The notes beneath the pieces were generated by a model. That model made no database searches, was not told where the DNA came from, and saw only the letters and a program-made list of their open reading frames with translations. The position numbers and the translations under genes are program-made. This document shows positions 6,189 through 49,406 of a stretch of DNA of 64,000 nt, piece by piece. The stretch is from Escherichia coli. GTDB lineage: Bacteria; Pseudomonadota; Gammaproteobacteria; Enterobacterales; Enterobacteriaceae. How positions within the stretch are numbered: position 1 is the stretch's first letter; every line of letters begins with the position of its first letter. The stretch lies in the NCBI RefSeq assembly GCF_044324785.1, contig NZ_CP172127.1. One strand, given 5' to 3'.

Positions 6189-7382
6189 TCAAATCTGCCG
6201 TAACTGCGCCTCAACATACAAATAGCCAATTCCCAGCACCTGTTGTGCGCGGCTTAATTGCCCAAAGCCAATCTGTGTCGCTTTCACGCTCGGTCCTTCG
6301 TCGCGGTCGAAAGGGTTAAATCCCGTCTGGCGAATGATGGTATTAAGCCAGTTCTCACCAAAGGCACAACTGCGACCGTACAACCAAATCTGATTAATAT
6401 TGAGGATGTTGAGGAAGTTATACAGACTCAAACCAATGGCGTTGGCAGAGCGATCAACCCAACTGGTGATCCACGGTTCTCCACTCTGCCAGGCAGCGAT
6501 TAACTGCGCAGTAGTCAGTTTTTCAGGATCAAGCTGAGTATTAACCGGTTGTGATTTTAGCCATACCCGCGCCTGTTTTTTTAATGCGCTTAACGAGGCG
6601 ACGGTTTCCAGGCAGCCATAACGTCCGCAGTCGCAGACGACGCCATCCGGATTAACGATGGTGTGACCAATCTGTCCGCTACCATACAAACTGCCGCGAT
6701 AAATTTGCTCGTTAATCACGAACGACGAGCCAATGCCGTAATCAACGTTGATCACGCAGAAATCCCGGCCCTGCGAATTATTTTGCCATTTCTCCGCCAG
6801 CGCCAGCATCACGCAGTCATTATCGACCATCACCCGAATGCCGAGCTTCTCTTCCAGCAGATACTTTACCTCAACCGGCGTTGTCCACGGTGCTTGCGGC
6901 ATGGTTTGCGACACGCCAGTCACCGGATCAACCTGACCGTGGATTGCCAGCGCCAGGTTGATGGTACGGTCCGGCCACAATTTACGGTGGCGATGCCAGC
7001 ATTTTTCGATTTCGGACAGCAGCGCCTGCGGCGTCGGTGCATCAATCTGTAAATACTCAAATTCACCTTTCGGACTTAAACAGGCGTTAGCGACCTGACA
7101 CTCAATACTGGTGGGCGTCACGTTCAGGCACAGCGTCCAGTCACCTTCCGGCGCAATCAGCCATGTACCGCTACTATGCCCGCGCGTCTGGCTTTCATCG
7201 TCGATATTCACCACCCGTTTTTCGCTTTCCAGTTCCTGCAAAATATTACTGACCGCCGGAATCGAAATTTGCGCCAGCCGGGCCAGGGTTGATTTATTGG
7301 CGCGCTTTTGCCGGTACAGCAGTTCCAGAATCACGCATTTGTTATGGTGGCGAATCTGTTGATTATTAATGCAGGCTCTCAT
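6189..7382 (-). CDS. yphH: ROK-family (NagC/Mlc-like) transcriptional regulator
   Basis: About 397-aa ORF with N-terminal HTH and a ROK sugar-kinase-like fold (CxCGxxGC zinc motif: CDCGRYGCLE); divergent from yphG. Confidence 0.8.
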   Translation of the reverse strand: MRACINNQQIRHHNKCVILELLYRQKRANKSTLARLAQISIPAVSNILQELESEKRVVNIDDESQTRGHSSGTWLIAPEGDWTLCLNVTPTSIECQVANACLSPKGEFEYLQIDAPTPQALLSEIEKCWHRHRKLWPDRTINLALAIHGQVDPVTGVSQTMPQAPWTTPVEVKYLLEEKLGIRVMVDNDCVMLALAEKWQNNSQGRDFCVINVDYGIGSSFVINEQIYRGSLYGSGQIGHTIVNPDGVVCDCGRYGCLETVASLSALKKQARVWLKSQPVNTQLDPEKLTTAQLIAAWQSGEPWITSWVDRSANAIGLSLYNFLNILNINQIWLYGRSCAFGENWLNTIIRQTGFNPFDRDEGPSVKATQIGFGQLSRAQQVLGIGYLYVEAQLRQI

Positions 7383-7499
7383 CTTCACTAAACCTTGTTT
7401 AGTTAATTGCGTGATTATTCCGCGAAAACATTGCCAGATTGTTCAATACACTGCCACAAATCTTTTAATTCAGTATGTCTTGTTAATATTGAGGGCACC

Positions 7500-10400: not shown

Positions 10401-10781
10401 ATTAACATTCACAGTTATTACAACGATCAGCCGGTTGATTATCTCTTCTGGCAAGGAATGGCGCTGCGACTGCTGGGCGAACAACAAATCGCACAGCAAC
10501 TGTTTAGTGAAATGAAACAGTGGGCGCAAGAGATGGCGAAAACCAGTATCGAGGCGGATTTCTTTGCTGTTTCACAACCTGACCTGTTGTCGCTGTATGG
10601 CGATTTACAACAGCAGCATAAAGAAAAATGCCTGATGGTGGCGATGCTGGCGTCCGCGGGACTAGGGGAGGTTGCGCAATATGAATCTGCTCGTGCTGAA
10701 TTGACGGCGATTAATCCGGCCTGGCCGAAAGCAGCATTATTCACCACCGTGATGCCTTTTATTTTTAACCGCGTTCACTAA
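7500..10781 (+). CDS. yphG: Large conserved protein of unknown function with C-terminal TPR-like repeats
   Basis: Long ORF (1124 aa from 7407); start placed at MTPVKVW (7500), which has a GAGGG Shine-Dalgarno, giving 1093 aa; first gene of the yphGFEDCB block. Confidence 0.75.
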   Translation: MTPVKVWQERVEIPTYETGPQDIHPMFLENRVYQGSSGAVYPYGVTDTLSEQKTLKSWQAVWLENDYIKVMILPELGGRVHRAWDKVKQRDFVYHNEVIKPALVGLLGPWISGGIEFNWPQHHRPTTFMPVDFTLEAHEDGAQTVWVGETEPMHGLQVMTGFTLRPDRAALEIASRVYNGNATPRHFLWWANPAVKGGEGHQSVFPPDVTAVFDHGKRAVSAFPIATGTYYKVDYSAGVDISRYKNVPVPTSYMAEKSQYDFVGAWCHDEDGGLLHVANHHIAPGKKQWSWGHSEFGQAWDKSLTDNNGPYIELMTGIFADNQPDFTWLDAYEEKRFEQYFLPYHSLGMVQNASRDAVIKLQRSERGIEWGLYAISPLNGYRLAIREIGKCNALLDDAVALTPATAIQGVLHGINPERLTIELSDADGNIVLSYQEHQPQELPLPDVAKAPLAAQDITSTDEAWFIGQHLEQYHHASRSPFDYYLRGVALDPLDYRCNLALAMLEYNRADFLQAVAYATQALKRAHALNKNPQCGQASLIRASAYERQGQYQQAEEDFWRAVWSGNSKAGGYYGLARLAARNGHVDAGLDFCQQSLRACPTNQEVLCLHNLLLVLSGRQDNARLQREKLLRDYPLNATLWWLNWFDGRSESALAQWRSLCQGRDVNALMTAGQLINWGMPTLAAEMLNALDCQRTLPLYLQASMLPKAERGELVTKAIYVFPQFVRFPNTLEEVAALESIEECWFARHLLACFYYNKRSYNKAITLWQRCVEMSPEFADGWRGLAIHAWNKQHDYELAARYLDNAYQLAPQDARLLFERDLLDKLSGATPEKRLARLENNLEIALKRDDMTAELLNLWHLTGQADKAADILATRKFHPWEGGEGKVTSQFILNQLLRAWQHLDAREPQQASELLHAALHYPENLSEGRLPGQTDNDIWFWQAICANAQGDETEATRCLRLAATGDRTINIHSYYNDQPVDYLFWQGMALRLLGEQQIAQQLFSEMKQWAQEMAKTSIEADFFAVSQPDLLSLYGDLQQQHKEKCLMVAMLASAGLGEVAQYESARAELTAINPAWPKAALFTTVMPFIFNRVH

Positions 10782-10877
10782 ACCTTATTAACTGTAATAT
10801 TTGAGCGGCACGCGCTGCCGCTCACGCTCAAATAATTAAAATAAGCCGTTGTAAATAAAAACCCTACAGGAGGCACT

Positions 10878-11861
10878 ATGCCTAAAAAAATGAGAACAAC
10901 CCGTAATCTATTATTAATGGCTACGCTATTAGGTAGCGCACTATTCGCCAGGGCTGCGGATAAAGAAATGACCATTGGCGCAATATACCTTGATACCCAG
11001 GGATATTACGCTGGCGTGCGTCAGGGCGTTCAGGATGCGGCAAAAGATTCTTCAGTACAGGTACAGTTAATTGAAACTAACGCCCAGGGTGATATTTCGA
11101 AAGAAAGTACCTTTGTTGATACCCTCGTGGCGCGTAATGTCGATGCCATTATTTTATCGGCAGTGTCTGAAAATGGCAGTAGCCGTACCGTTCGTCGCGC
11201 CAGTGAAGCGGGTATTCCGGTGATTTGCTACAACACCTGTATTAATCAAAAAGGCGTCGATAAATATGTCTCGGCGTATCTGGTCGGCGATCCGCTGGAA
11301 TTTGGTAAAAAACTGGGTAACGCTGCCGCCGATTATTTTATTGCCAACAAAATTGACCAGCCGAAAATTGCCGTTATCAATTGCGAAGCCTTTGAAGTTT
11401 GTGTGCAACGACGTAAAGGGTTTGAAGAAGTATTAAAAGCCCGCGTTCCCGGCGCGCAAATTGTCGCTAATCAGGAAGGGACTGTTTTAGATAAAGCGAT
11501 TTCCGTTGGTGAAAAACTAATTATCTCCACGCCGGATCTCAACGCCATTATGGGCGAATCGGGCGGTGCGACACTCGGCGCGGTAAAAGCGGTACGTAAT
11601 CAAAATCAGGCCGGAAAAATTGCTGTTTTCGGTTCTGATATGACCACTGAAATTGCTCAGGAGCTGGAAAACAACCAGGTGCTGAAAGCGGTGGTGGATA
11701 TTTCCGGTAAGAAAATGGGCAATGCTGTTTTCGCGCAAACTTTGAAGGTTATCAATAAACAAGCCGACGGTGAAAAAGTGATTCAGGTGCCTATCGATCT
11801 CTATACCAAAACGGAAGACGGTAAACAGTGGCTGGCAACGCACGTTGATGGTCTGCCCTAA
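10878..11861 (+). CDS. yphF: Periplasmic sugar-binding protein of an ABC transporter
   Basis: 327-aa ORF with signal peptide (MRTTRNLLLMATLLGSALFARA) and periplasmic-binding-protein fold features. Confidence 0.85.
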   Translation: MPKKMRTTRNLLLMATLLGSALFARAADKEMTIGAIYLDTQGYYAGVRQGVQDAAKDSSVQVQLIETNAQGDISKESTFVDTLVARNVDAIILSAVSENGSSRTVRRASEAGIPVICYNTCINQKGVDKYVSAYLVGDPLEFGKKLGNAAADYFIANKIDQPKIAVINCEAFEVCVQRRKGFEEVLKARVPGAQIVANQEGTVLDKAISVGEKLIISTPDLNAIMGESGGATLGAVKAVRNQNQAGKIAVFGSDMTTEIAQELENNQVLKAVVDISGKKMGNAVFAQTLKVINKQADGEKVIQVPIDLYTKTEDGKQWLATHVDGLP

Positions 11862-11883
11862 TCGCTGATTCGCAGAGGTCCCT

Positions 11884-13395
11884 ATGTTCACGGCAACAGA
11901 GGCAGTCCCGGTAGCAAAAGTGGTGGCAGGAAATAAGCGTTATCCCGGCGTCGTTGCGTTGGATAACGTTAACTTCACGCTCAATAAAGGCGAAGTTCGT
12001 GCGCTGTTAGGCAAAAACGGCGCGGGCAAATCGACCCTCATTCGAATGCTTACCGGTAGCGAACGTCCGGATAGCGGTGATATCTGGATTGGCGAGACGT
12101 GACTGGAAGGTGACGAAGCTACGCTGACTCGCCGTGCCGCTGAACTGGGGGTACGCGCGGTTTATCAGGAGTTAAGTCTGGTGGAAGGGCTGACGGTGGC
12201 GGAAAACCTCTGCCTCGGTCAATGGCCCCGCCGCAACGGCATGATTGATTACCCGCAAATGGCGCAGGATGCCCAACGTTGCTTACTGGCGCTGGGCGTT
12301 GACGTTAGTCCTGAACAACTTGTTTCAACACTAAGCCCGGCGCAAAAGCAGCTGGTGGAAATTGCGCGGGTGATGAAAGGCGAGCCGCGCGTGGTCATTC
12401 TTGATGAACCTACCAGTTCGCTTGCCAGTGCGGAAGTTGAACTGGTGATCAGCGCGGTTAAAAAGATGTCGGCACTGGGCGTGGCGGTGATTTATGTCAG
12501 CCACCGGATGGAAGAAATTCGCCGCATTGCCTCCTGTGCCACCGTTATGCGCGATGGTCAGGTGGCGGGCGATGTGATGCTCGAAAACACCTCCACGCAT
12601 CATATTGTGTCGCTAATGCTCGGGCGCGATCACGTTGATATTGCGCCGGTTTCCCCTCAGGAAATTGTCGATCAGGCCGTGCTGGAAGTCCGTGCGTTAC
12701 GCCATAAGCCCAAGCTGGAGGATATCAGCTTTACGCTCCGTCGTGGCGAAGTACTCGGCATTGCTGGCCTGCTGGGGGCAGGGCGCAGTGAATTGTTGAA
12801 AGCCATAGTTGGGCTGGATACGTATGAACAGGGCGAAATTGTTATCAACGGCGAGAAAATCACGCGCCCCGATTACGGCGACATGCTGAAACGCGGCATT
12901 GGCTATACGCCAGAAAACCGCAAAGAAGCGGGGATCATTCCCTGGCTGGGCGTTGACGAAAATACGGTGCTGACCAATCGGCAAAAAATCAGCGCCAACG
13001 GTGTGCTGCAATGGTCCACCATCCGCCGCCTGACCGAAGAGGTGATGCAGCGGATGACGGTCAAGGCCGCCAGTAGCGAAACGCCCATCGGCACGCTTTC
13101 TGGCGGCAATCAGCAAAAAGTGGTGATCGGTCGTTGGGTCTATGCCGCCAGCCAGATTTTGTTGCTCGACGAGCCAACGCGTGGCGTCGATATCGAAGCC
13201 AAACAGCAGATTTACCGTATTGTCCGCGAGCTGGCTGCCGAAGGAAAAAGCGTGGTGTTTATCTCCAGTGAAGTGGAGGAGTTGCCGCTGGTGTGTGACC
13301 GCATCCTGTTATTACAGCACGGCACGTTCTCGCAGGAGTTTCACGCTCCGGTCAATGTGGATGAGCTGATGTCCGCCATTCTGTCTGTGCACTGA
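11884..13395 (+). pseudogene. yphE: Sugar ABC transporter ATP-binding protein with duplicated ABC domains, interrupted by an in-frame TGA at 12100-12102 (codon 73)
   Basis: ORFs 11884..12102 and 12181..13395 are in the same frame; the 26 codons between them have no stop and read as ABC ATPase sequence; Walker [10 protein letters not shown] lies upstream of the stop; uninterrupted length would be 503 aa. Confidence 0.7.
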
Positions 13396-28419: not shown

Positions 28420-28530
28420 TAAAAAGTATTCAGAATCAGGCCGGAGTGTTTAACACTCCGTAAACACGGTCGTACATCCAGCCGGTAGCCTGGTTCCTTG
28501 CATTGAGTGATGTACGGAGTTTATAGAGCA

Positions 28531-35105: not shown

Positions 35106-35882
35106 ATGTCCGAAACAAAAAACGAACTTGAAGATCTGCTGGAAAAAGCAGCAACCGAACCGGCGCACCGCCCGGCCTTTTTCCGTACGCTACTGGGATC
35201 CACCGTCTGGGTGCCTGGTACGGCGGCGCAGGGCGAGGCTGTGGTTGAAGATAGCGCACTTGATTTACAGCACTGGGAAAAAGAAGACGGCACCAGTGTC
35301 ATTCCTTTTTTCACCTCGTTAGAAGCACTTCAACAGGTGGTTGAAGACGAACAGGCATTTGTCGTAATGCCCGTTCGCACATTGTTTGAGATGACCCTTG
35401 GCGAAACGCTCTTCCTTAATGCCAAACTGCCAACCGGTAAAGAATTTATGCCGCGTGAAATCAGTTTGCTGATTGGTGAAGAAGGAAATCTGCTGAGCAG
35501 CCAGGAAGTACTGGAAGGCGGTGAATCGCTGATATTATCGGAAGTTGCAGAGCCACCAGCACAAATGATTGATTCACTCACCACCTTATTTAAAACCATT
35601 AAGCCAGTGAAGCGTGCTTTTCTTTGTTCAATTAAAGAGAACGAAGAGGCACAGCCTAATTTACTTATTGGCATTGAAGCCGATGGTGATATCGAAGAAA
35701 TTATTCAGGCGGCGGGAAGTGTAGCGACCGATACATTACCTGGCGATGAACCCATCGATATTTGTCAGGTGAAAAAAGGGGAAAAAGGAATTAGCCACTT
35801 TATTACCGAACATATTGTGCCATTCTATGAACGTCGCTGGGGTGGTTTTTTGCGTGACTTTAAACAGAACCGGATAATCTAA
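35106..35882 (+). CDS. sseB: SseB (enhancer of serine sensitivity) family protein
   Basis: 258 aa from MSETKNELEDLL; position between pepB and sseA. Confidence 0.85.
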   Translation: MSETKNELEDLLEKAATEPAHRPAFFRTLLGSTVWVPGTAAQGEAVVEDSALDLQHWEKEDGTSVIPFFTSLEALQQVVEDEQAFVVMPVRTLFEMTLGETLFLNAKLPTGKEFMPREISLLIGEEGNLLSSQEVLEGGESLILSEVAEPPAQMIDSLTTLFKTIKPVKRAFLCSIKENEEAQPNLLIGIEADGDIEEIIQAAGSVATDTLPGDEPIDICQVKKGEKGISHFITEHIVPFYERRWGGFLRDFKQNRII

Positions 35883-35885
35883 AAT

Positions 35886-35912
35886 ATGCCGCCCCAAAGG
35901 GCGGCATTCGGG
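35886..35912. terminator. Bidirectional intrinsic terminator: ends sseB on the + strand and the putative ryfA transcript on the - strand
   Basis: Hairpin gccgccc caaa gggcggc; on the - strand it is followed by atatttt. Confidence 0.55.
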
Positions 35913-36199
35913 CTTACCTGCTGTTCTGAAGGTTGTTAACCACCAATAAATTGTTGCCGGAGAGACTCCGGTTATTATTTACCTCGGTTAACAGCGCACC
36001 AGAAACAATAAGTACGATACAAAAGCACCGTATCTTCATTGTGCGGTCCATGCGAAGACCGCATCACGACAGCACCACTGGCGATATTGCCGCGATAGCA
36101 AGCGCTGAGACGCGCTTGCCCTAACGGTCGCGGAACATCCTTTCCTTAAGCCAGCGCCCGCTTGCGAGACGGCGGAAAGGTCCGCAGTGGATAACACAC
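35893..36199 (-). ncRNA. ryfA: Putative ryfA transcript (about 300 nt), a small mRNA/sRNA carrying a short hydrophobic ORF
   Basis: From memory, ryfA lies next to the sseB 3' end in K-12. Candidate - strand promoter (-35 TTGTCA, 16-bp spacer, -10 TATTGT) near 36207-36234 and the terminator at 35886-35912 bound a roughly 300-nt unit. Confidence 0.45.
35914..36051 (-). CDS. Small hydrophobic ORF (45 codons; 41 from the internal Met at 36039): MDRTMKIRCFCIVLIVSGALLTEVNNNRSLSGNNLLVVNNLQNSR; candidate type I toxin-like membrane peptide (TimP-like)
   Basis: Hand-translated from the - strand; hydrophobic stretch CFCIVLIVSGALL; lies inside the putative ryfA transcript; not in the ORF track because it is under 60 aa. 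Confidence 0.35.
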   Translation of the reverse strand: MDRTMKIRCFCIVLIVSGALLTEVNNNRSLSGNNLLVVNNLQNSR

Positions 36200-36262: not shown

Positions 36263-36359
36263 CGCTGAGACGCGCTTGCATTACTACGGTTATACAATCT
36301 GCTGGAAAGGCCGCGAACCAAACCAGCAACAAATAACCGCCTGATTTTGGCGGTTTTTT
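36263..36359 (+). ncRNA. Candidate sRNA (about 97 nt) divergent from ryfA, with a 17-nt perfect antisense match to the ryfA 5' region; antitoxin-like (TimR-like)
   Basis: Promoter TTGACA (36228-36233), 17-bp spacer, GAGTAT; internal hairpin tgctgg...ccagca; intrinsic terminator aaccgcc tgatttt ggcggtt plus T6 at 36335-36359; 36263-36279 is identical to 36103-36119 on the same strand. Confidence 0.4.
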
Positions 36360-36539
36360 GTTGTTTAAAGAAAGTGAAATTACACGTTTAAGTAATATCT
36401 TTTACCAGTTAGTATATTTTAATATTAAGCGGGATTTGTTTATATTTGTCTGAATTCGGACTGATAAGCCAAATGAATTCAAAATCTATCCTTTTTTATC
36501 TACTTGACATCGTTGATGCATAAAGCGAGTATTGAGTAG

Positions 36540-36642: not shown

Positions 36643-37488
36643 TTATTTCAATGGCTCAACCGGTAAATCTGCCCGTGCGCCCCATTCACTCCATGCGCCG
36701 TCGTACAGTTTCACGTTTGGCACATCCAGCGTCGCGAGTGCCAACAAAACCACGGCTGCCGTTACACCAGAACCGCAACTGACGATAATAGGTTTGTCAT
36801 AACTTACGCCGCGACCAAAAAATATCGCATCCAGTTCATCGGTCGTTTTTAGTTCGCCTTCGCGCACCAGTTCCGTCCACGGAACATTCAGTGCTCCGGG
36901 AATATGTCCGCGACGTAAACCTGGGCGAGGTTCATCAACTTCTGCGTTAAAACGTGCAGCCGGGCGGGCATCGATAATTTGCGCCGTATTTTCATGGCTT
37001 GCCAATAACACATCGGTTACTTTCACCACGGCTTCAGGATTAAACGCGGCGTTAAACTCTCCTTCCGGCAGCTCTACTGCGCCTTCTTCTAATAGCAGAT
37101 CATCACGCTGCCAGCCTGCAAGTCCACCACCCAGAATCGACACTTTCTCTACACCAAAGGTGCGCAGCATCCACCATGCTCGTGGGGCTGAGAAAAGATT
37201 ACCTTCGTCATAGACAATCAGGTGCTTATCCTGGTTAACGCCTAATTCACGCATCGCCACGGCGAACGTTTCCGGGCGCGGCAGCATGTGCGGAAGCGGG
37301 GAAGTGTGATCAGAAAGCGCTTCGATATCAAAAAACACTGCGCCGGGAATATGTCCATTCAGATACTCCTGAGCAACGTTACGATCTTCCTGTCCAGGCG
37401 ACGCCATGCGGGCATCGATAATCTGAATTTCCGGGTCATCAATATGTTCGGCGAGCCAGTCGGCTCCTACAAACCATGTCGTGGACAT
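36643..37488 (-). CDS. sseA: 3-mercaptopyruvate sulfurtransferase (tandem rhodanese domains)
   Basis: 281 aa from MSTTWFVGADWL; active-site Cys loop (CGSGVTA); ORF-track upstream extension rejected. Confidence 0.9.
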   Translation of the reverse strand: MSTTWFVGADWLAEHIDDPEIQIIDARMASPGQEDRNVAQEYLNGHIPGAVFFDIEALSDHTSPLPHMLPRPETFAVAMRELGVNQDKHLIVYDEGNLFSAPRAWWMLRTFGVEKVSILGGGLAGWQRDDLLLEEGAVELPEGEFNAAFNPEAVVKVTDVLLASHENTAQIIDARPAARFNAEVDEPRPGLRRGHIPGALNVPWTELVREGELKTTDELDAIFFGRGVSYDKPIIVSCGSGVTAAVVLLALATLDVPNVKLYDGAWSEWGARADLPVEPLK

Positions 37489-37694
37489 AGGCATCTCCAT
37501 TTTTGCCGGGGTTAGGCTAAATTGTCGGATGTTTAGTGAAAGGCGACAAGCAAAAGAGGCTGATTTGGCTGTCTGAGCCACAATTCTCACTAAAATTCGG
37601 ATTGTATGGGCGTGATACTGAATTACATAACGTAAATTCTCACGCATAATAATTATTCGACGTTGCTAACGGGCCATTGTGGCAGGGATGAAAA

Positions 37695-40600
37695 ATGAAA
37701 AAGTTACGCGTAGCCGCCTGCATGCTAATGCTGGCGCTGGCAGGGTGCGACAACAACGATAACGCGCCAACAGCGGTGAAAAAAGATGCGCCTTCTGAAG
37801 TTACTAAAGCGGCCTCTTCAGAAAACGTGAGTTCAGCAAAACTCTCCGCGCCGGAGCGACAAAAACTGGCCCAACAGAGTGCCGGTAAGGCGCTGACATT
37901 GCTGGATCTCTCTGAAGTTCAACTTGATGGCGCAGCCACGCTGGTGCTGACGTTCTCCATCCCTCTCGACCCGGATCAGGATTTCTCACGCGTTATCCAT
38001 GTCGTCGATAAGAAAAGCGGCAAAGTGGATGGTGCCTGGGAGCTGTCAGATAATCTTAAAGAGTTGCGTTTACGCCACCTCGAACCGAAACGTGATTTGA
38101 TCGTCACTATTGGCAAGGAGGTCAAAGCACTCAACAACGCAACCTTCAGTAAAGATTACGAAAAAACTATAACTACCCGCGATATCCAACCCAGCGTCGG
38201 TTTTGCCAGCCGTGGCTCGTTGTTACCTGGTAAAGTTATTGAAGGGCTGCCGGTAATGGCGCTCAACGTTAACAATGTCGATGTTAACTTCTTCCGTGTT
38301 AAGCCAGAATCTCTGCCTGCATTCATTAGCCAATGGGAATACCGCAATTCGCTGGCGAACTGGCAGTCTGACAAACTGCTGCAGATGGCGGATCTGGTCT
38401 ACACCGGACGGTTTGATCTCAATCCTGCGCGTAATACCCGTGAAAAATTATTGCTGCCGCTGGGCGATATCAAACCGCTTCAGCAGGCAGGCGTGTATCT
38501 GGCTGTGATGAATCAGGCTGGACGTTACGATTACAGTAATCCCGCGACGCTGTTTACGTTAAGTGATATCGGCGTTTCAGCTCACCGTTATCACAATCGT
38601 CTGGATATCTTTACCCAAAGTCTGGAAAACGGCGCGGCCCAGCAAGGAATTGAAGTCTCTTTATTAAATGAGAAAGGGCAGACTCTGACTCAGGCAACCA
38701 GTGACGCTCAGGGGCATGTGCAGCTGGAAAATGATAAAAACGCCGCATTATTGCTGGCACGTAAAGACGGTCAGACAACGCTACTCGATTTAAAACTTCC
38801 GGCGCTGGACTTAGCAGAATTTAACATTGCTGGCGCGCCAGGCTATAGCAAACAGTTTTTCATGTTTGGCCCGCGCGATCTTTATCGCCCGGGTGAAACG
38901 GTAATCCTCAATGGTTTGCTGCGTGATGCAGACGGTAAAGCGTTGCCCAATCAACCCATCAAGTTAGACGTGATTAAACCCGATGGGCAGGTACTCAGGA
39001 GCGTCGTTAGTCAGCCGGAAAATGGCCTCTACCACTTTACCTGGCCACTCGATAGCAATGCGGCAACCGGTATGTGGCATATTCGCGCTAACACGGGCGA
39101 TAACCAGTATCGGATGTGGGATTTCCACGTCGAAGATTTTATGCCAGAGCGCATGGCGCTGAATCTGACCGGTGAGAAAACCCCGCTAACGCCGAAAGAT
39201 GAAGTGAAATTCTCCGTGGTGGGGTACTACCTGTATGGTGCGCCTGCTAATGGTAATACTTTGCAAGGGCAACTTTTCCTGCGCCCACTGCGTGAAGCTG
39301 TGTCAGCCTTACCTGGTTTCGAATTCGGCGATATAGCTGCCGAAAATCTTTCCCGCACGCTGGATGAAGTTCAGTTGACGCTGGATGATAAAGGGCGTGG
39401 CGAAGTTTCTACAGAAAGCCAGTGGAAGGAAACGCATTCCCCATTGCAGGTTATTTTCCTGGGTAGTTTGCTGGAATCGGGCGGTCGCCCAGTGACGCGC
39501 CGCGCTGAGCAGGCTATCTGGCCTGCCGATGCATTGCCGGGGATCCGTCCGCAATTCGCCTCGAAATCGGTTTACGATTATCGCACTGACAGCACGGTGA
39601 AACAGCCCATTGTTGATGAAGGCAGTAACGCCGCTTTTGACATCGTTTATAGCGATGCGCAAGGCGTAAAAAAAGCCGTGTCGGGCTTGCAGGTGCGCCT
39701 GATTCGCGAACGCCGCGATTACTACTGGAACTGGTCAGAAGATGAAGGCTGGCAGTCACAGTTTGATCAAAAAGATCTGATTGAAAATGAACAAACTCTG
39801 GATCTTCAGGCGGATGAAACCGGTAAGGTCAGTTTCCCGGTAGAGTGGGGCGCTTATCGTCTGGAAGTCAAAGCGCCGAATGAAGCGGTCAGTAGTGTGC
39901 GTTTCTGGGCTGGCTATAGCTGGCAGGACAACAGCGACGGGAGCGGTGCCGTGCGACCCGACCGTGTCACGCTGAAACTGGATAAAGCCAGTTATCGCCC
40001 TGGCGATACCATTAAGTTGCATATTGCCGCGCCAACGGCGGGTAAAGGTTATGCGATGGTCGAGTCCAATGAAGGGCCGCTGTGGTGGCAAGAGATTGAT
40101 GTTCCGGCTCAAGGGCTGGATCTGACGATTCCGGTCGATAAAACCTGGAATCGTCATGATCTGTATTTAAGTACGCTGGTGGTACGTCCTGGCGATAAAT
40201 CTCGCTCCGCGACGCCAAAACGTGCGGTTGGGGTGTTGCATTTGCCGCTTGGTGATGAAAACCGTCGCCTCGATCTGGCGCTGGAAACCCCCACCCAAAT
40301 GCGCCCCAATCAGCCATTAACCGTGAAAATTAAAGCCAGCAATAAAAACGGTGAGATGCCAAAACAGGTGAATGTGCTGGTGTCTGCCGTTGATAGCGGT
40401 GTGCTGAATATTACTGATTACGTTACCCCCGATCCGTGGCAGGCGTTCTTTGGTCAGAAACGCTATGGTGCAGACATTTACGATATTTACGGTCAGGTCA
40501 TTGAAGGTCAGGGGCGTCTGGCAGCTCTGCGTTTTGGTGGCGATGGTGATGAGCTGAAACGTGGTGGTAAACCGCCGGTCAATCACGTCAATATTGTCGC

Positions 40601-42656
40601 GCAGCAGGCGCTGCCGGTAACGCTCAACGAACAGGGTGAAGGCTCGGTTACACTGCCGATTGGTGATTTTAACGGTGAATTGCGCGTCATGGCGCAAGCC
40701 TGGACGGCAGATGACTTCGGTAGCAACGAAAGCAAAGTGATAGTTGCCGCACCGGTGATTGCTGAACTGAACATGCCGCGCTTTATGGCGAGTGGCGATA
40801 CCTCGCGTCTGACGCTGGATATCACTAATCTTACCGATAAACCGCAAAAACTGAACGTTGCCCTGACCGCCAGTGGTTTGCTTGAACTGGTCAGCGATTC
40901 ACCCGCAGCCGTTGAATTAGCGCCAGGCGTACGTACTACGCTGTTTATCCCGGTGCGAGCATTGCAAGGTTATGGCGATGGAGAAATTCAGGCCACCATT
41001 AGCGGGTTAGCGTTACCGGGTGAAACCGTTGCCGATCAGCATAAGCAGTGGAAAATCGGCGTCCGTCCGGCGTTCCCGGCACAAACGGTTAATTACGGTA
41101 CGACGTTGCAGCCTGGTGAGACATGGGCGATTCCGGCGGATGGATTGCAAAACTTCTCGCCTGTTACGCTGGAAGGGCAATTGTTGTTGAGCGGCAAACC
41201 ACCGCTGAACATCGCACGTTATATCAAAGAGTTAAAAGCGTATCCGTACGGCTGTCTTGAGCAAACCGCCAGCGGCCTGTTCCCGTCACTTTATACCAAC
41301 GCAGCCCAACTGCAGGCGTTGGGCATCAAAGGCGACAGTGATGAGAAACGCCGTGCATCGGTCGATATCGGCATTTCCCGTTTGCTGCAAATGCAACGTG
41401 ATAACGGCGGCTTTGCGCTGTGGGATAAAAACGGTGACGAAGAGTACTGGCTGACGGCTTACGTGATGGATTTCCTGGTCCGCGCAGGTGAGCAGGGTTA
41501 CAGCGTGCCGACGGACGCCATTAACCGGGGAAATGAGCGTCTGCTGCGCTATTTACAAGATCCGGGCATGATGTCGATCCCGTACGCGGATAATCTCAAA
41601 GCCAGTAAATTCGCCGTACAGTCTTACGCTGCGCTGGTGCTGGCCCGTCAGCAAAAAGCTCCACTGGGTGCGCTGCGTGAAATCTGGGAGCATCGTGCAG
41701 ATGCCGCTTCTGGTTTACCGCTGCTGCAACTTGGCGTTGCGCTGAAAACCATGGGTGATGCGACGCGTGGTGAAGAAGCAATTGCGTTGGCGCTGAAAAC
41801 GCCGCGTAATAGTGATGAGCGGATATGGCTGGGTGATTACGGTAGTCCACTGCGCGACAACGCGTTGATGCTCTCCTTGCTGGAAGAAAATAAACTGCTA
41901 CCCGATGAGCAGAACACTTTGCTGAACACGCTTTCGCAGCAGGCATTTGGTGAACGCTGGCTATCGACCCAGGAAAGCAACGCGTTGTTCCTGGCTGCCC
42001 GTACGATTCAGGATTTACCGGGTAAATGGCAGGCGCAAACCTCTTTCTCAGCTGAGCCGCTGACAGGCGAGAAAACGCTAAACAGCAATCTGAATAGCGA
42101 TCAACTTGCCACCTTGCAGGTGACCAACAGTGGCGATCAGCCGTTATGGCTGCGTGTGGATGCCAGCGGTTATCCGCAATCCGCACCTTTACCGGCGAAC
42201 AATGTGCTGCAAATCGAGCGTCATATTCTTGGTACTGATGGTAAGAGCAAATCGCTGGACTCGTTACGTAGCGGCGATCTGGTGCTGGTCTGGTTGCAGG
42301 TAAAAGCCAGTAACAGCGTGCCGGATGCGTTAGTCGTGGATCTGCTGCCTGCGGGTCTGGAACTGGAAAACCAGAATCTGGCGAACGGTAGCGCCAGCCT
42401 GGAGCAAAGTGGTGGCGAAGTGCAGAACTTACTGAACCAGATGCAGCAGGCGAGTATTAAGCACATTGAGTTCCGTGACGATCGCTTTGTGGCGGCGGTT
42501 GCCGTTGATGAATACCAACCGGTAACGCTGGTGTATCTGGCGCGGGCGGTGACGCCGGGAACGTATCAGGTGCCGCAGCCTATGGTGGAATCGATGTATG
42601 TTCCCCAATGGCGGGCGACCGGCGCGGCTGAAGATTTGCTGATTGTCAGACCGTAA
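37695..42656 (+). CDS. yfhM: Bacterial alpha-2-macroglobulin (ECAM) lipoprotein
   Basis: 1653-aa ORF with lipoprotein signal (LALAGC) and thioester motif CLEQ (YPYGCLEQTASG). Confidence 0.9.
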   Translation: MKKLRVAACMLMLALAGCDNNDNAPTAVKKDAPSEVTKAASSENVSSAKLSAPERQKLAQQSAGKALTLLDLSEVQLDGAATLVLTFSIPLDPDQDFSRVIHVVDKKSGKVDGAWELSDNLKELRLRHLEPKRDLIVTIGKEVKALNNATFSKDYEKTITTRDIQPSVGFASRGSLLPGKVIEGLPVMALNVNNVDVNFFRVKPESLPAFISQWEYRNSLANWQSDKLLQMADLVYTGRFDLNPARNTREKLLLPLGDIKPLQQAGVYLAVMNQAGRYDYSNPATLFTLSDIGVSAHRYHNRLDIFTQSLENGAAQQGIEVSLLNEKGQTLTQATSDAQGHVQLENDKNAALLLARKDGQTTLLDLKLPALDLAEFNIAGAPGYSKQFFMFGPRDLYRPGETVILNGLLRDADGKALPNQPIKLDVIKPDGQVLRSVVSQPENGLYHFTWPLDSNAATGMWHIRANTGDNQYRMWDFHVEDFMPERMALNLTGEKTPLTPKDEVKFSVVGYYLYGAPANGNTLQGQLFLRPLREAVSALPGFEFGDIAAENLSRTLDEVQLTLDDKGRGEVSTESQWKETHSPLQVIFLGSLLESGGRPVTRRAEQAIWPADALPGIRPQFASKSVYDYRTDSTVKQPIVDEGSNAAFDIVYSDAQGVKKAVSGLQVRLIRERRDYYWNWSEDEGWQSQFDQKDLIENEQTLDLQADETGKVSFPVEWGAYRLEVKAPNEAVSSVRFWAGYSWQDNSDGSGAVRPDRVTLKLDKASYRPGDTIKLHIAAPTAGKGYAMVESNEGPLWWQEIDVPAQGLDLTIPVDKTWNRHDLYLSTLVVRPGDKSRSATPKRAVGVLHLPLGDENRRLDLALETPTQMRPNQPLTVKIKASNKNGEMPKQVNVLVSAVDSGVLNITDYVTPDPWQAFFGQKRYGADIYDIYGQVIEGQGRLAALRFGGDGDELKRGGKPPVNHVNIVAQQALPVTLNEQGEGSVTLPIGDFNGELRVMAQAWTADDFGSNESKVIVAAPVIAELNMPRFMASGDTSRLTLDITNLTDKPQKLNVALTASGLLELVSDSPAAVELAPGVRTTLFIPVRALQGYGDGEIQATISGLALPGETVADQHKQWKIGVRPAFPAQTVNYGTTLQPGETWAIPADGLQNFSPVTLEGQLLLSGKPPLNIARYIKELKAYPYGCLEQTASGLFPSLYTNAAQLQALGIKGDSDEKRRASVDIGISRLLQMQRDNGGFALWDKNGDEEYWLTAYVMDFLVRAGEQGYSVPTDAINRGNERLLRYLQDPGMMSIPYADNLKASKFAVQSYAALVLARQQKAPLGALREIWEHRADAASGLPLLQLGVALKTMGDATRGEEAIALALKTPRNSDERIWLGDYGSPLRDNALMLSLLEENKLLPDEQNTLLNTLSQQAFGERWLSTQESNALFLAARTIQDLPGKWQAQTSFSAEPLTGEKTLNSNLNSDQLATLQVTNSGDQPLWLRVDASGYPQSAPLPANNVLQIERHILGTDGKSKSLDSLRSGDLVLVWLQVKASNSVPDALVVDLLPAGLELENQNLANGSASLEQSGGEVQNLLNQMQQASIKHIEFRDDRFVAAVAVDEYQPVTLVYLARAVTPGTYQVPQPMVESMYVPQWRATGAAEDLLIVRP

Positions 42657-44969
42657 ATGCCTCGCCAGTTAACAAAACGCGGCTGCTGGATAATGCTGGC
42701 AGCTGCGCCCTTTCTCCTTTTTCTTGCAGCGTGGGGAGCTGATAAACTCTGGCCTCTACCGCTGCATGAAGTCAATCCCGCACGCGTGGTTGTGGCTCAG
42801 GATGGGACGCCGCTCTGGCGCTTTGCCGATGCGGACGGCATCTGGCGTTATCCGGTAACAATCGAAGATGTTTCTCCACGTTACCTTGAAGCGCTGATCA
42901 ATTATGAAGATCGCTGGTTCTGGAAGCATCCGGGGGTGAATCCATTCTCGGTGGCGCGCGCAGCATGGCAAGATCTCACTTCGGGAAGAGTTATTTCCGG
43001 TGGCAGCACGCTCACTATGCAGGTTGCTCGTCTGCTTGATCCTCACCCCAAAACATTTGGCGGCAAAATTCGCCAGCTCTGGCGCGCGTTGCAACTGGAG
43101 TGGCATCTGTCTAAGCGTGAAATTCTGACCTTGTATCTTGACCGCGCCCCGTTTGGCGGTACGTTACAGGGGATCGGTGCGGCAAGCTGGGCTTATCTCG
43201 GGAAGTCGCCTGCAAATTTGAGCTATTCCGAGGCGGCAATGCTGGCGGTTTTGCCGCAAGCGCCCAGCCGACTACGCCCGGATCGCTGGCCGGAACGTGC
43301 CGAAGCCGCGCGTAATAAAGTGCTCGAACGGATGGCTGCGCAAGGTGTGTGGTCCCGTGAGCAGGTAAAAGAATCAAGGGAAGAACCCATCTGGCTGGCA
43401 CCCCGACAAATGCCGCAACTGGCACCGCTGTTTTCGCGCATGATGCTCGGTAAAAGCAAAAGCGACAAAATCGTTACTACGCTGGATGCCGGTCTTCAAC
43501 GACGTCTGGAAGAACTGGCGCAAAACTGGAAAGGACGATTACCACCGCGCAGCTCACTGGCGATGATCGTGGTTGATCATACCGATATGCGTGTTCGCGG
43601 CTGGGTGGGTTCGGTTGATCTCAACGATGATTCACGCTTTGGTCATGTTGATATGGTCAATGCGATCCGATCGCCAGGATCGGTGCTCAAACCGTTTGTT
43701 TATGGTCTGGCGCTGGATGAAGGCTTGATCCACCCGGCATCACTGCTGCAAGACGTTCCCCGGCGTACCGGTGATTACCGACCTGGCAACTTTGACAGCG
43801 GTTTTCATGGCCCGATCAGCATGAGCGAGGCGCTGGTGCGCTCGCTGAATTTACCTGCTGTGCAGGTGCTGGAAGCCTATGGGCCGAAACGGTTTGCTGC
43901 AAAGTTACGCAATGTTGGATTGCCGTTATATTTGCCCAACGGTGCTGCACCGAATCTTTCGCTCATTCTCGGCGGCGCTGGTGCAAAACTGGGGGATATG
44001 GCGGCGGCCTATACCGCGTTTGCTCGCCACGGCAAGGCAGGTAAATTGCGCTTACAGCCTGACGATCCGCTGCTTGAACGGCCTTTAATGTCGTCGGGGG
44101 CGGCGTGGATCATTCGCCGGATTATGGCTGATGAAGCGCAACCCTTGCCGGATGGTGCCTTGCCGCGCGTTGCCCCACTGGCATGGAAAACGGGCACCAG
44201 CTATGGCTATCGTGATGCCTGGGCGATTGGGGTTAACGCTCGCTATGTTATTGGGATCTGGACTGGCAGACCGGACGGCACGCCCGTTGTTGGTCAGTTT
44301 GGCTTTGCCAGTGCCGTACCATTGTTGAATCAGGTCAATAATATCTTACTGTCGCGCAGTGCGAATCTGCCGGAAGACCCGCGCCCGAACTCAGTCACTC
44401 GTGGCGTTATCTGCTGGCCAGGCGGACAGTCTTTGCCGGAAGGTGACGGTAACTGTCGCCGCCGCCTGGCAACCTGGCTGCTGGACGGGAGTCAGCCGCC
44501 AACTCTATTACTGCCGGAGCAGGAAGGCATTAATGGCATTCGTTTCCCCATCTGGCTGGATGAAAACGGTAAACGTGTTGCCGCTGATTGCCCTCAGGCG
44601 CGACAAGAAATGATAAATGTCTGGCCGCTACCGCTGGAACCCTGGTTGCCCGCATCAGAACGCCGCGCTGTGCGCTTACCACCGGCCTCGACAATTTGCC
44701 CGCCATACGGTCACGATGCACAACTCCCACTGCAGCTGACAGGTGTTCGCGATGGCGCGATTATTAAACGTTTACCGGGCGCAGCGGAAGCGACTTTGCC
44801 GTTGCAATCAAGTGGAGGGGCAGGTGAACGCTGGTGGTTTCTGAATGGCGAACCGTTAACTGAACGCGGGCGCAACGTGACCCTGCATTTGATGGATAAA
44901 GGCGATTATCAATTGCTGGTGATGGATGAGGTGGGGCAAATCGCGACAGTGAAATTTGTCATGCAATAG
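42657..44969 (+). CDS. pbpC: Penicillin-binding protein 1C (glycosyltransferase/transpeptidase-fold)
   Basis: 770-aa ORF; transglycosylase motif EDRWFWKHPGVN, SxxK-type motif (SVLKPF); start codon directly abuts the yfhM stop. Confidence 0.9.
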   Translation: MPRQLTKRGCWIMLAAAPFLLFLAAWGADKLWPLPLHEVNPARVVVAQDGTPLWRFADADGIWRYPVTIEDVSPRYLEALINYEDRWFWKHPGVNPFSVARAAWQDLTSGRVISGGSTLTMQVARLLDPHPKTFGGKIRQLWRALQLEWHLSKREILTLYLDRAPFGGTLQGIGAASWAYLGKSPANLSYSEAAMLAVLPQAPSRLRPDRWPERAEAARNKVLERMAAQGVWSREQVKESREEPIWLAPRQMPQLAPLFSRMMLGKSKSDKIVTTLDAGLQRRLEELAQNWKGRLPPRSSLAMIVVDHTDMRVRGWVGSVDLNDDSRFGHVDMVNAIRSPGSVLKPFVYGLALDEGLIHPASLLQDVPRRTGDYRPGNFDSGFHGPISMSEALVRSLNLPAVQVLEAYGPKRFAAKLRNVGLPLYLPNGAAPNLSLILGGAGAKLGDMAAAYTAFARHGKAGKLRLQPDDPLLERPLMSSGAAWIIRRIMADEAQPLPDGALPRVAPLAWKTGTSYGYRDAWAIGVNARYVIGIWTGRPDGTPVVGQFGFASAVPLLNQVNNILLSRSANLPEDPRPNSVTRGVICWPGGQSLPEGDGNCRRRLATWLLDGSQPPTLLLPEQEGINGIRFPIWLDENGKRVAADCPQARQEMINVWPLPLEPWLPASERRAVRLPPASTICPPYGHDAQLPLQLTGVRDGAIIKRLPGAAEATLPLQSSGGAGERWWFLNGEPLTERGRNVTLHLMDKGDYQLLVMDEVGQIATVKFVMQ

Positions 44970-48177: not shown

Positions 48178-49296
48178 ATGCATAACCAGGCTCCAATTCA
48201 ACGTAGAAAATCAACACGTATTTACGTTGGGAATGTGCCGATTGGCGATGGTGCTCCCATCGCCGTACAGTCCATGACCAATACGCGTACGACAGACGTC
48301 GAAGCAACGGTCAATCAAATCAAGGCGCTGGAACGCGTTGGCGCTGATATCGTCCGTGTCTCCGTACCGACGATGGACGCGGCAGAAGCGTTCAAACTCA
48401 TCAAACAGCAGGTTAACGTGCCGCTGGTGGCTGACATCCACTTCGACTATCGCATTGCGCTGAAAGTAGCGGAATACGGCGTCGATTGTCTGCGTATTAA
48501 CCCTGGCAATATCGGTAATGAAGAGCGTATTCGCATGGTGGTTGACTGTGCGCGCGATAAAAACATTCCGATCCGTATTGGCGTTAACGCCGGATCGCTG
48601 GAAAAAGATCTGCAAGAAAAGTATGGCGAACCGACGCCGCAGGCGTTGCTGGAATCCGCCATGCGTCATGTTGATCATCTCGATCGCCTGAACTTCGATC
48701 AGTTCAAAGTCAGCGTGAAAGCGTCAGACGTCTTCCTCGCTGTTGAGTCTTATCGTTTGCTGGCAAAACAGATCGATCAGCCGCTGCATCTGGGGATCAC
48801 CGAAGCGGGTGGTGCGCGCAGCGGGGCGGTTAAATCCGCCATTGGTTTAGGTCTGCTGCTGTCTGAAGGCATCGGCGACACGCTGCGCGTATCGCTGGCG
48901 GCCGATCCGGTTGAAGAGATCAAAGTCGGTTTCGATATTTTGAAATCGCTGCGTATCCGTTCGCGAGGGATCAACTTCATCGCCTGCCCGACCTGTTCGC
49001 GTCAGGAATTTGATGTTATCGGTACGGTTAACGCGCTGGAGCAACGCCTGGAAGATATCATCACTCCGATGGACGTTTCGATTATCGGCTGCGTGGTGAA
49101 TGGCCCAGGTGAGGCGCTGGTTTCTACACTCGGCGTCACCGGCGGCAACAAGAAAAGCGGCCTCTATGAAGATGGCGTGCGCAAAGACCGTCTGGACAAC
49201 AACGATATGATCGACCAGCTGGAAGCACGCATTCGTGCGAAAGCCAGTCAGCTGGACGAAGCGCGTCGAATTGACGTTCAGCAGGTTGAAAAATAA
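48178..49296 (+). CDS. ispG: 4-hydroxy-3-methylbut-2-enyl diphosphate synthase (MEP pathway)
   Basis: 372 aa, Cys ligands ([15 protein letters not shown]). Confidence 0.95.
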
Positions 49297-49386
49297 TAAC
49301 GTGATGGGAAGCGCCTCGCTTCCCGTGTATGATTGAACCCGCATGGCTCCCGAAACATTGAGGGAAGCGTTGAGGGTTCATTTTTA
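49297..49386 (+). ncRNA. sroE: Probable SroE-like 3'UTR-derived sRNA between ispG and hisS
   Basis: Two stem-loops (gggaagcg cctc cgcttccc; tgaaccc...gggttca) followed by T5 at 49381-49385; from memory, SroE sits in this spacer in K-12. Confidence 0.45.
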
Positions 49387-49406
49387 TATTCAGAAAGAGA
49401 ATAAAC

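What the first reader, a model, noticed from the sequence alone, without database searches (positions are those of the whole stretch)
42654..42659. yfhM stop codon directly abuts the pbpC start codon (TAAATG)
With zero spacing, translation of pbpC is probably coupled to yfhM. This fits the proposed functional pairing of the alpha-2-macroglobulin with PBP1C in the periplasm. It is a known arrangement, recorded for completeness.
Basis: partly seen in the sequence, partly recalled or inferred. Interest (0 to 1): 0.15.

Follow-up and report, generated by a model that had tools for sequence, protein, structure and literature searches.

The report
yfhM–pbpC abutting junction plus hairpin
The stop codon of the E. 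coli alpha-2-macroglobulin gene does touch the start codon of the cell-wall enzyme gene pbpC, a known and ordinary operon arrangement, but 21 bases further on lies a previously unremarked, evolutionarily conserved RNA hairpin that probably limits how much pbpC is made.

Summary
TAA (42654-42656) ends yfhM and ATG (42657-42659) starts pbpC, with zero spacing, on an E. coli chromosome. RefSeq annotates it this way, and a published table of K-12 gene pairs lists the pair at distance 0. pbpC has no Shine-Dalgarno (SD) sequence (+0.4 kcal/mol), and no promoter-like site lies in the yfhM body. All 25 Enterobacteriaceae junctions with spacing 0 or +1 are SD-less. Coupling by termination-reinitiation is therefore the best reading, but it is inferred and probably inefficient. 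Spacing is not conserved more widely (quartiles -4/+7/+70 nt in 63 loci): ATGA overlaps in Alphaproteobacteria, and 50-60 nt spacers with an SD in Yersinia and Photorhabdus.

It is present in every Enterobacteriaceae sequence examined and covaries strongly on a codon-anchored alignment: 95.9% paired against 33-57% when slid, 7 of 13 pairs with double changes, and 0 of 500 shuffles reaching the observed value. Rfam has no family for it, and I found no mention of it in the papers I could search. It resembles the protective 3' hairpins embedded in downstream ORFs (Dar & Sorek 2018). In some relatives it also meets an intrinsic-terminator consensus. The junction itself is already known; the hairpin is a new member of a known kind. 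Interest is low to moderate.

The parts
37622..37650 (+). Candidate sigma-70 promoter of the yfhM-pbpC unit (ATTACA-17-CATAAT)
   Evidence: Consensus match only, 9 of 12. It is the only + strand promoter-like site between sseA and position 44736.
37695..42656 (+). yfhM (ECAM), alpha-2-macroglobulin lipoprotein, 1653 aa
   Evidence: ORF; Pfam bacterial A2M domain series; lipobox LALAGC and CLEQ at 1187; RefSeq annotation in homologous genomes.
42613..42652 (+). Tentative stem-loop in the last ~40 nt of yfhM
   Evidence: RNAalifold consensus on 17 Enterobacteriaceae (A5 columns 17-56). One pair covaries (GC:6, AU:6, GU:2) and the rest are mostly invariant or have one-sided changes. Support is weak.
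42654..42656 (+). yfhM stop codon TAA
42657..42659 (+). pbpC start codon ATG, abutting the stop, with no SD upstream
   Evidence: Anti-SD duplex +0.4 kcal/mol. Invariant in six E. coli. The same start fits the collinear N-termini of 24 Enterobacteriaceae sequences.
42653..42677 (+). Linker left unpaired in the consensus, holding the stop, the start and the first 21 nt of pbpC
   Evidence: RNAalifold consensus leaves A5 columns 57-82 unpaired. In Escherichia alone the single-sequence fold partly pairs this region.
42678..42707 (+). Conserved RNA hairpin in pbpC codons 8-17: 5' arm 42678-42689 (CGCGGCTGCTGG), loop 42690-42695 (ATAATG), 3' arm 42696-42707 (CTGGCAGCTGCG)
   Evidence: Folds. Synonymous-codon randomisation z from -0.9 to -5.5. 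Covariation on the codon-anchored alignment A4: 95.9% paired, 7 of 13 pairs with double changes, 0 of 500 shuffles. Recovered independently by RNAalifold. No Rfam family.
42708..42725 (+). U-rich tract CCCTTTCTCCTTTTTCTT after the hairpin (codons PFLLFL of the membrane anchor)
   Evidence: Sequence. It does not meet the terminator consensus in the window but does in L183 and E. cloacae L013. U-enrichment at synonymous sites is modest and uneven.
42657..44969 (+). pbpC, penicillin-binding protein 1C, 770 aa
   Evidence: NCBIfam NF008414, 1561.9 bits; Pfam Transgly, Transpeptidase and BiPBP_C; motifs EDRWFWKHPG84, SVLK342, SLN396, KTG511.

Best explanation
yfhM and pbpC form one transcription unit. 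pbpC has no SD and no promoter of its own. Its AUG is reached mainly by ribosomes that have just terminated at the yfhM UAA and reinitiate one codon further on (termination-reinitiation). Without an SD this probably happens at low efficiency. Twenty-one nucleotides into pbpC, a conserved 12-13 bp hairpin marks the 3' boundary of the yfhM message. It most likely lowers PbpC output relative to YfhM in one of three ways: by blocking 3'-to-5' exonucleases so the yfhM segment outlives the pbpC segment, by insulating translation, or, in some lineages, by partial intrinsic termination. What is shown: the anatomy, the absence of an SD and of a consensus promoter, the clade-wide conservation of 0/+1 spacing, and the covariation of the hairpin. 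What is inferred: that reinitiation is the route of initiation, and what the hairpin does.
For: TAA|ATG and the ORFs. Gene identities. No SD: +0.4 kcal/mol against -6.0 for yfhM. No + strand promoter-like site between 37651 and 44735. Spacing is 0 in Escherichia, Citrobacter and several metagenomic relatives and +1 in Enterobacter-like lineages, and all 25 are SD-less; the +11 and +13 variants have -2.3 and -3.6 kcal/mol. Reinitiation in E. coli falls steeply with distance and is common at -8..+6 nt (PMC10666635). Hairpin evidence: present in all 28 distinct junction sequences folded; more stable than synonymous recodings in 11 of 11 sequences; strong covariation on a structure-independent alignment; recovered by RNAalifold. 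A stable structure within 70 nt after the A2M stop is enriched across Proteobacteria: 18 of 65 loci fall in their own top 5%, against 3.2 expected. It follows the A2M stop whether pbpC abuts it or sits 50-60 nt away, as in Yersinia and Photorhabdus. The closest described class, protective hairpins embedded in the downstream ORF, without a U-tract and conserved in Salmonella and Enterobacter, is in PMC5927463.
Against: There is no direct experiment on this pair. I found no 3'-end, operon-map or synthesis-rate record for the locus in the material held. SD-less reinitiation was inefficient in 4 of 5 tested E. coli pairs. The junction is unpaired in the consensus, so de novo SD-independent initiation is not excluded. 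The consensus promoter scan is crude and covers sigma-70 only, and a sigma-E SELEX peak is listed inside yfhM (PMC5493296). Stable post-stop structures are reported as depleted after non-terminal operon genes (PMC7518266), so this hairpin argues for restraint of pbpC expression rather than efficient coupling. Lineages in the 65-locus test are not independent, and the hairpin was first seen in these same sequences.
Confidence: 0.6

Rival explanations
1. Translation-gated attenuator. The hairpin plus U-rich tract is a partial intrinsic terminator for yfhM that lies inside pbpC. If the ribosome finishing yfhM reinitiates at the abutting AUG and keeps following RNA polymerase, it covers the 5' arm and transcription reads through. 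If it does not, the hairpin forms and the transcript ends. pbpC mRNA supply would then be set by reinitiation frequency.
For: The hairpin starts 21 nt after the AUG, close enough for a reinitiating ribosome to occlude it. In L183 and E. cloacae L013 it meets the terminator consensus, with a 13-bp stem followed by ATTTTTCT or CTTTTCGTTT. L014 has a textbook terminator in the A2M-pbpC spacer, and Photorhabdus a hairpin there with only a moderately U-rich tail. U is enriched at synonymous sites after the stem, mean z +1.0 against -0.16 to +0.30 in control segments.
Against: The E. coli window does not meet the terminator consensus, and three C residues separate the stem from the U-rich run. U-enrichment is absent in E. 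coli, Citrobacter, Superficieibacter and Enterobacter sp. Bisph1. U-richness is expected anyway in codons for a Leu/Phe-rich membrane anchor. No mapped 3' end was found in the held Term-seq tables.
Confidence: 0.15
2. pbpC is initiated de novo by free 30S subunits on an unstructured, SD-less start region, independently of yfhM translation. The zero spacing is just genome compaction.
For: The consensus structure leaves the stop/start and the first 21 nt of pbpC unpaired. bioBF is a precedent for a tight E. coli pair with a very weak SD that initiates de novo (PMC6728339).
Against: Spacing is held at 0/+1 in 25 Enterobacteriaceae lineages while the flanking sequence diverges, and SD-like pairing appears only when spacing opens. 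In Escherichia the region -12..+12 is mostly paired in single-sequence folds, with P(unpaired) 0.22-0.31.
Confidence: 0.15
3. pbpC has its own promoter inside the 3' part of yfhM and is expressed largely independently of it.
For: A sigma-E genomic SELEX peak is listed inside the yfhM ORF (PMC5493296). The consensus scan covers only sigma-70-type sites.
Against: There is no sigma-70-like site on the + strand between 37651 and 44735, and none in the equivalent stretches of L183 and L013. A leader starting inside yfhM would still have no SD. The SELEX peak's position relative to the junction could not be resolved from the table.
Confidence: 0.08
4. Stop-codon readthrough makes a YfhM-PbpC fusion protein, since the two ORFs are in the same frame.
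For: Both ORFs are in frame 0 and contiguous.
Against: Sister genera have +1 spacing (TAAGATG, TAATATG, TAGCATG, TAACGTG), which breaks the frame. The stop is UAA. The one over-long homologue, P0064, is a C-terminal frameshift artefact and not a fusion.
Confidence: 0.01

Closest known systems
Termination-reinitiation (TeRe) coupled gene pairs (Huber et al. 2019, PMC6728339; 2023, PMC10666635)
   Same: The genes are co-directional with a spacing inside the -8..+6 nt range where reinitiation works, with no room for a terminator or promoter between them. K-12 yfhM-pbpC is itself listed at distance 0 in the 2023 supplement.
   Different: Most such pairs overlap (ATGA or TAATG) and carry an SD inside the upstream gene, whereas this one abuts and has no SD. 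The pair is flagged 'CMPLX not', meaning it is not a known heteromeric complex. Coupling has not been measured for it.
Protective 3' RNA hairpins that shape operon stoichiometry by differential decay (Dar & Sorek 2018, PMC5927463; the malE-malF paradigm)
   Same: [quoted passage not shown]
   Different: This one sits 21-51 nt into the downstream ORF, against an average of 107 +/- 56 nt. yfhM-pbpC is absent from the held tables of that study. No decay or 3'-end data are available for it.
Ribosome termination structure, RTS (Chemla et al. 2020, PMC7518266)
   Same: A stable structure shortly downstream of a stop codon, proposed to reduce reinitiation on the next cistron.
   Different: The genome-wide RTS signal is centred about 5 nt after the stop and is depleted after non-terminal operon genes. 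Here the stem begins 21 nt after the stop and follows a non-terminal gene.
Class-1 bacterial alpha-2-macroglobulin / PBP1C gene pair (Budd et al. 2004, as cited in PMC4498604 and PMC3735191)
   Same: A2M with a lipobox and CLEQ thioester lies directly upstream of pbpC on the same strand. Of the 77 pbpC loci I surveyed, 65 have an A2M 3' end within 1.6 kb upstream.
   Different: Nothing differs at the gene level. The junction architecture varies by clade: 0/+1 without an SD, ATGA with an SD, or 50-60 nt with a hairpin-sequestered SD.

Membership tests
Class-1 bacterial A2M-PBP1C operon | A2M homologue with an N-terminal lipoprotein signal (lipobox Cys) | tested here: met
   The N-terminus is MKKLRVAACMLMLALAGC....
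Class-1 bacterial A2M-PBP1C operon | CxEQ thioester motif and bait-region/MG domain series | tested here: met
   CLEQ at residue 1187. Pfam bMG1, bMG2, bMG3, MG2, bMG5, bMG6, A2M_BRD, A2M, TED, CUB and bMG10.
Class-1 bacterial A2M-PBP1C operon | pbpC (PBP1C equivalog) immediately downstream on the same strand | tested here: met
   NF008414, 1561.9 bits against a 1121 cutoff; ORF starts at 42657.
Class-1 bacterial A2M-PBP1C operon | Co-transcription of the two genes | not testable with these tools
   Supported only by zero spacing and the lack of a promoter-like site. No transcript map could be retrieved.
Termination-reinitiation coupled pair | Co-directional genes with an overlap or a spacing of at most a few nt | tested here: met
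   Spacing is 0. The effective range is given in PMC10666635.
Termination-reinitiation coupled pair | SD motif in the 3' end of the upstream gene (typical, not obligatory, in Proteobacteria) | tested here: not met
   Anti-SD duplex is +0.4 kcal/mol. All 25 junctions with 0/+1 spacing are at -0.2 kcal/mol or weaker.
Termination-reinitiation coupled pair | Downstream translation depends on ribosomes reaching the upstream stop codon | not testable with these tools
   This needs the premature-stop reporter assay of Huber et al.
Protective 3' hairpin / differential operon decay element | Energetically stable hairpin at the 3' boundary of the upstream gene, often inside the downstream ORF | tested here: met
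   The 51-nt segment folds at -20.8 to -23.4 kcal/mol in E. coli and is more stable than synonymous recodings in 11 of 11 sequences. Position is 42678-42707.
Protective 3' hairpin / differential operon decay element | Evolutionary conservation of the structure | tested here: met
   Covariation counts and RNAalifold.
Protective 3' hairpin / differential operon decay element | RNA 3' end mapped just downstream of the hairpin, and a longer half-life for the upstream gene | not testable with these tools
   There is no entry for yfhM or pbpC in the held supplements.
Intrinsic (Rho-independent) terminator | GC-rich stem-loop immediately followed by a U-tract | tested here: inconclusive
   Not met in the E. 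coli window. Met in L183 and E. cloacae L013. The synonymous U-enrichment is uneven.
Rfam cis-regulatory families | Match to a curated covariance model | tested here: not met
   No hit at the gathering threshold, and none at E<=10 over the hairpin.

The most novel reading that the evidence does not exclude
The SD-less abutting start and the conserved hairpin work together as one device, a reinitiation-gated gate. When the ribosome that has finished yfhM restarts on pbpC, it occupies the 5' arm, the hairpin cannot form, and a full-length message is made and translated. Otherwise the hairpin forms and either terminates transcription or caps a stable yfhM-only mRNA. This would hard-wire a low, fixed PbpC:YfhM ratio. 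It would also explain why the hairpin follows the A2M stop codon in lineages with quite different junctions.
Probability: 0.15. Interest if true: 0.55.

Novelty: new member of a known kind. Interest (0 to 1): 0.3.

Why it matters
The TAAATG junction adds nothing new. It is annotated in RefSeq and already tabulated in the literature. The hairpin is a modest addition: a clearly covarying RNA structure inside a coding sequence, at the boundary between a periplasmic protease trap and the peptidoglycan synthase thought to partner it. If it sets the YfhM:PbpC ratio, it would give a concrete handle on how the proposed defence-and-repair pair is balanced. It would also add a well-supported example to the small set of coding-embedded structures that shape operon stoichiometry. 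For annotation, it explains why the first ATG is the right start even though it has no SD. The polymorphic Met13 codon that some gene callers pick lies in the hairpin loop.

Tried and rejected
1. NCBIfam gave no hit for YfhM, so I used Pfam instead.
2. The search for homologous proteins returned only Citrobacter sequences at ~86% identity, which was useless for diversity. The 50%-representative search replaced it.
3. I tested the idea that a stem masks the AUG and is opened by the upstream ribosome. That stem is confined to Escherichia and is absent from the Enterobacteriaceae consensus, so I rejected it as a conserved mechanism.
4. The in-frame ATG at codon 13 (42693) is ACG in K-12, O157 and AHS8C65RI and has no SD, so I rejected it as an alternative start.
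5. I rejected a readthrough fusion because relatives have +1 spacing.
6. The MAFFT alignment A3 did not keep the hairpin arms in register. I replaced it with the codon-anchored alignment A4.
7. Experimental data were searched without result: Adams 2021, TERMITe 2025 and Dar & Sorek 2018 have no entry for the locus in their held supplements; no supplements are held for PMC9023263 or Conway 2014; Li 2014 and Budd 2004 could not be retrieved under the PMC ids I tried.
8. The metagenome DNA-pattern scan was mostly chance hits: 17 of 120 stretches were real junctions.
9. The U-tract synonymous test was ambiguous.
Full report
**Observation.** The window reads ...GTCAGACCG TAA ATG CCTCGC..., with TAA at 42654-42656 and ATG at 42657-42659. 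The mechanical ORF list gives 37695..42656 (+, 1653 aa) and 42657..44969 (+, 770 aa). Both are in the same frame.

The upstream protein carries the bacterial alpha-2-macroglobulin domain series, a lipobox (LALAGC) and the CLEQ thioester motif at residue 1187. The downstream protein is a PbpC equivalog, scoring 1561.9 bits against a cutoff of 1121. It has the glycosyltransferase and SxxK/SxN/KTG motifs.

The window is an E. coli chromosome. It is 99.9% identical to strain C4 over 701 nt, and 5,424 of 5,426 complete genomes hold most of that stretch. RefSeq annotates zero spacing in five diverse strains. The 21 nt GTCAGACCGTAAATGCCTCGC are invariant in six strains whose flanks differ by up to 11%.

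**Is it known?** Yes. The adjacency of the ECAM gene and pbpC is stated in PMC3735191. [quoted passage not shown] The supplement of PMC10666635 lists K-12 b2520 yfhM to b2519 pbpC at distance 0.

**Signals for independent expression.** The 20 nt before the ATG pair with the 16S 3' end at +0.4 kcal/mol, which means there is no SD. Of all ATGs in the window, 88.6% do better, and yfhM itself has -6.0. On the + strand the consensus scan finds a promoter-like site just upstream of yfhM (37622-37650) and nothing more until 44736. A sigma-E SELEX peak is listed inside yfhM in PMC5493296, but I could not place it relative to the junction. The in-frame ATG at codon 13 is ACG in K-12, O157 and AHS8C65RI. 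It is nevertheless the start chosen for the database representative P0001.

**Other species.** I aligned 36 diverse PbpC sequences and scanned one genome per species, which gave 77 loci. In 65 of them an A2M 3' end lies within 1.6 kb upstream on the same strand, and 63 of these had scorable start candidates.

- Of those 63, 26 have a candidate start within -8..+6 nt: ATGA 10 times, -1 three times, 0 three times, +1 four times, and others.
- Quartiles under the most-upstream-start rule are -4 / +7 / +70.5. This is close to the published figures for COG2373 to COG4953, -4 / +9.2 / +65 with n = 337.
- The architecture follows clade. Escherichia and Citrobacter have 0. Enterobacter and Superficieibacter have +1. 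Many Alphaproteobacteria have ATGA or GTGA, often with a good SD. Yersinia and Photorhabdus have 50-60 nt with an SD. Six of the seven Pseudomonas loci have 400-800 nt between the genes; P. asuensis has only +13 to +40.
- A DNA-pattern scan of metagenome contigs added 17 Enterobacteriaceae-like junctions.
- All 25 junctions with spacing 0 or +1 have anti-SD energies of -0.2 kcal/mol or weaker. The two with +11 and +13 have -2.3 and -3.6.

So the tight, SD-less junction is conserved within Enterobacteriaceae but not beyond.

**Mechanistic background.** In E. coli reporter assays, reinitiation falls steeply with distance. A spacing of +2 nt costs 5-70% depending on the pair, and +38 nt costs 80-100%. 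Removing the SD substantially reduced reinitiation in 4 of 5 pairs. A zero-spaced, SD-less start should therefore be fed by terminating ribosomes, but at low efficiency.

**The unexpected part.** Folding 120 nt around the junction gave a z-score of -2.78, with two elements.

The first is a stem that pairs the start region with yfhM codons. It exists only in Escherichia and is absent from the consensus fold.

The second is a 12-13 bp hairpin at pbpC nt 22-51 (window 42678-42707). It appears in all 28 distinct junction sequences folded, and the arm sequences differ while staying complementary:

- E. coli: CGCGGCUGCUGG / CUGGCAGCUGCG
- E. cloacae: GCUCCCGCUGGC / GCUGGCGGGAGC
- Superficieibacter: AAAACCCGCUGGC / GCUGGCGGGUUUU
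- L183: AAAACGCCGCUGGC / GCUGGCGGCGUUU

The encoded residues change as well (RGCWIMLAAA, RSRWLWLAGA, KTRWRWLAGF).

The evidence that this is a selected RNA structure is as follows.

- The PbpC N-termini are collinear, so I could build a gap-free, codon-anchored alignment that owes nothing to the structure (A4).
- On that alignment 95.9% of cells pair, against 33-57% when the 3' partner is slid.
- Seven of 13 pairs change on both sides, one of them with five pair types.
- There are 37 compensatory cells, against 12.8 +/- 2.6 in shuffles, and 0 of 500 shuffles reach the observed value.
- The covariation score is 0.486, against 0.05-0.16 in the slid controls.
- RNAalifold finds the same helix independently.
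- Synonymous recoding gives z from -0.9 to -5.5 in 11 of 11 sequences.
- Two invariant or nearly invariant G.U pairs place the structure in the sense-strand RNA.
- Rfam has nothing here.

**What the hairpin is for.** Across 65 diverse loci, the 70 nt after the A2M stop rank in the most stable 5% of same-gene windows in 18 cases, against 3.2 expected (binomial p about 2e-9, with lineages not independent). In Yersinia and Photorhabdus the hairpin lies in the spacer, upstream of the pbpC start. It therefore follows the A2M stop rather than the pbpC start, which points to a function at the 3' end of yfhM.

Three known mechanisms fit.

- Protective 3' hairpin. These block exonucleases and make the upstream gene's mRNA outlast the downstream one. 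In 17 of 26 cases they are embedded in the downstream ORF, they lack a U-tract, and they are conserved in Salmonella and Enterobacter (PMC5927463).
- Ribosome termination structure. These insulate against reinitiation (PMC7518266). They are reported as depleted after non-terminal operon genes, so by that measure yfhM behaves like a terminal gene.
- Partial intrinsic terminator. The hairpin meets the terminator consensus in L183 and E. cloacae but not in the E. coli window. U-enrichment at synonymous sites after the stem is modest and uneven, with mean z +1.0 against -0.16 to +0.30 in controls.

All three predict less PbpC than YfhM. I could not separate them, because I found no 3'-end, decay or synthesis-rate record for this locus.

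**Verdict.** The junction is real, conserved in its clade and already known. Coupling by termination-reinitiation is the best explanation of how an SD-less pbpC gets translated, but it is inferred and probably weak. The conserved covarying hairpin 21 nt downstream is the only new element. It belongs to a known kind of operon-internal structure. Overall interest is low to moderate.

Noticed in passing
window 42693-42695: An in-frame ATG at pbpC codon 13 lies in the hairpin loop. It is polymorphic in E. coli (ATG in the window and S88, ACG in K-12, O157 and AHS8C65RI). A gene caller chose it as the start for the 758-aa representative of a 10,805-member E. coli PbpC cluster (P0001).
   Followed up: yes
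L002 (E. coli NCTC9100) about 6358-6395; equivalent to window ~42676 to ~45620: A clean deletion keeps TAAATG plus the first 19 nt of pbpC and then joins to the 3' end of ndk. It removes the hairpin, pbpC and most of ndk, and yfhM is then followed by the ndk terminator and rlmN. pbpC and ndk are dispensable in this K-12-like strain.
   Followed up: partly
L012 5427-5460 and L023 5414-5445 (Yersinia): The ~50-nt A2M-pbpC spacer holds a conserved 10-13 bp hairpin (CCCCCTTTGC...GCAAAGGGGG). Its 3' arm contains the pbpC SD (AAGGGGGA), which suggests structure-gated coupling of a different design from E. coli's.
   Followed up: partly
L016-L021 (Pseudomonas), gap between the A2M stop and pbpC: 400-800 nt separate A2M and pbpC. 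Several loci have a + strand ORF of 108-151 aa in the gap (for example L019 4976-5419 and L018 4972-5364). I did not check whether it is a real gene.
   Followed up: no
L025 (Gammaproteobacteria MAG), 5501-12896: The gene order is reversed: pbpC comes first and a full-length A2M homologue lies about 450 nt downstream on the same strand (tblastn hit 8172-12896).
   Followed up: no
window 42613-42652: A weaker stem-loop in the last ~40 nt of yfhM appears in the Enterobacteriaceae consensus fold, with one pair covarying (GC:6, AU:6). Together with the downstream hairpin it brackets an unpaired ~25-nt junction.
   Followed up: partly
window 42617-42716 compared with 42300-43000: The 100 nt around the junction vary unusually widely within E. 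coli: 89-100% identity, with K-12 at 93% and phylogroup-B2 S88 at 89%. Only 3,260 of 5,426 genomes reach the megablast word size here, whereas 5,425 of 5,426 genomes match the surrounding 701 nt, most at 95-99% identity. B2-type strains encode PFIIIL instead of PFLLFL in the membrane anchor.
   Followed up: partly
window 35881-36185 (-), 36317-36495 (-), 28420-28529 (+), 49296-49387 (+): Rfam gathering-threshold hits to ryfA, IS128, the iscR stability element and sroE. The K-12-type annotation places the small toxin gene timP in the ryfA region between sseB and sseA. The window has no tRNA genes.
   Followed up: no
window 36643-37647 (-): The longest sseA ORF is 334 aa, but RefSeq annotates 281 aa and the NCBIfam match starts at residue 54. 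The true sseA start is therefore about 53 codons further in, leaving a divergent sseA-yfhM intergenic region of about 206 nt rather than 47 nt.
   Followed up: partly
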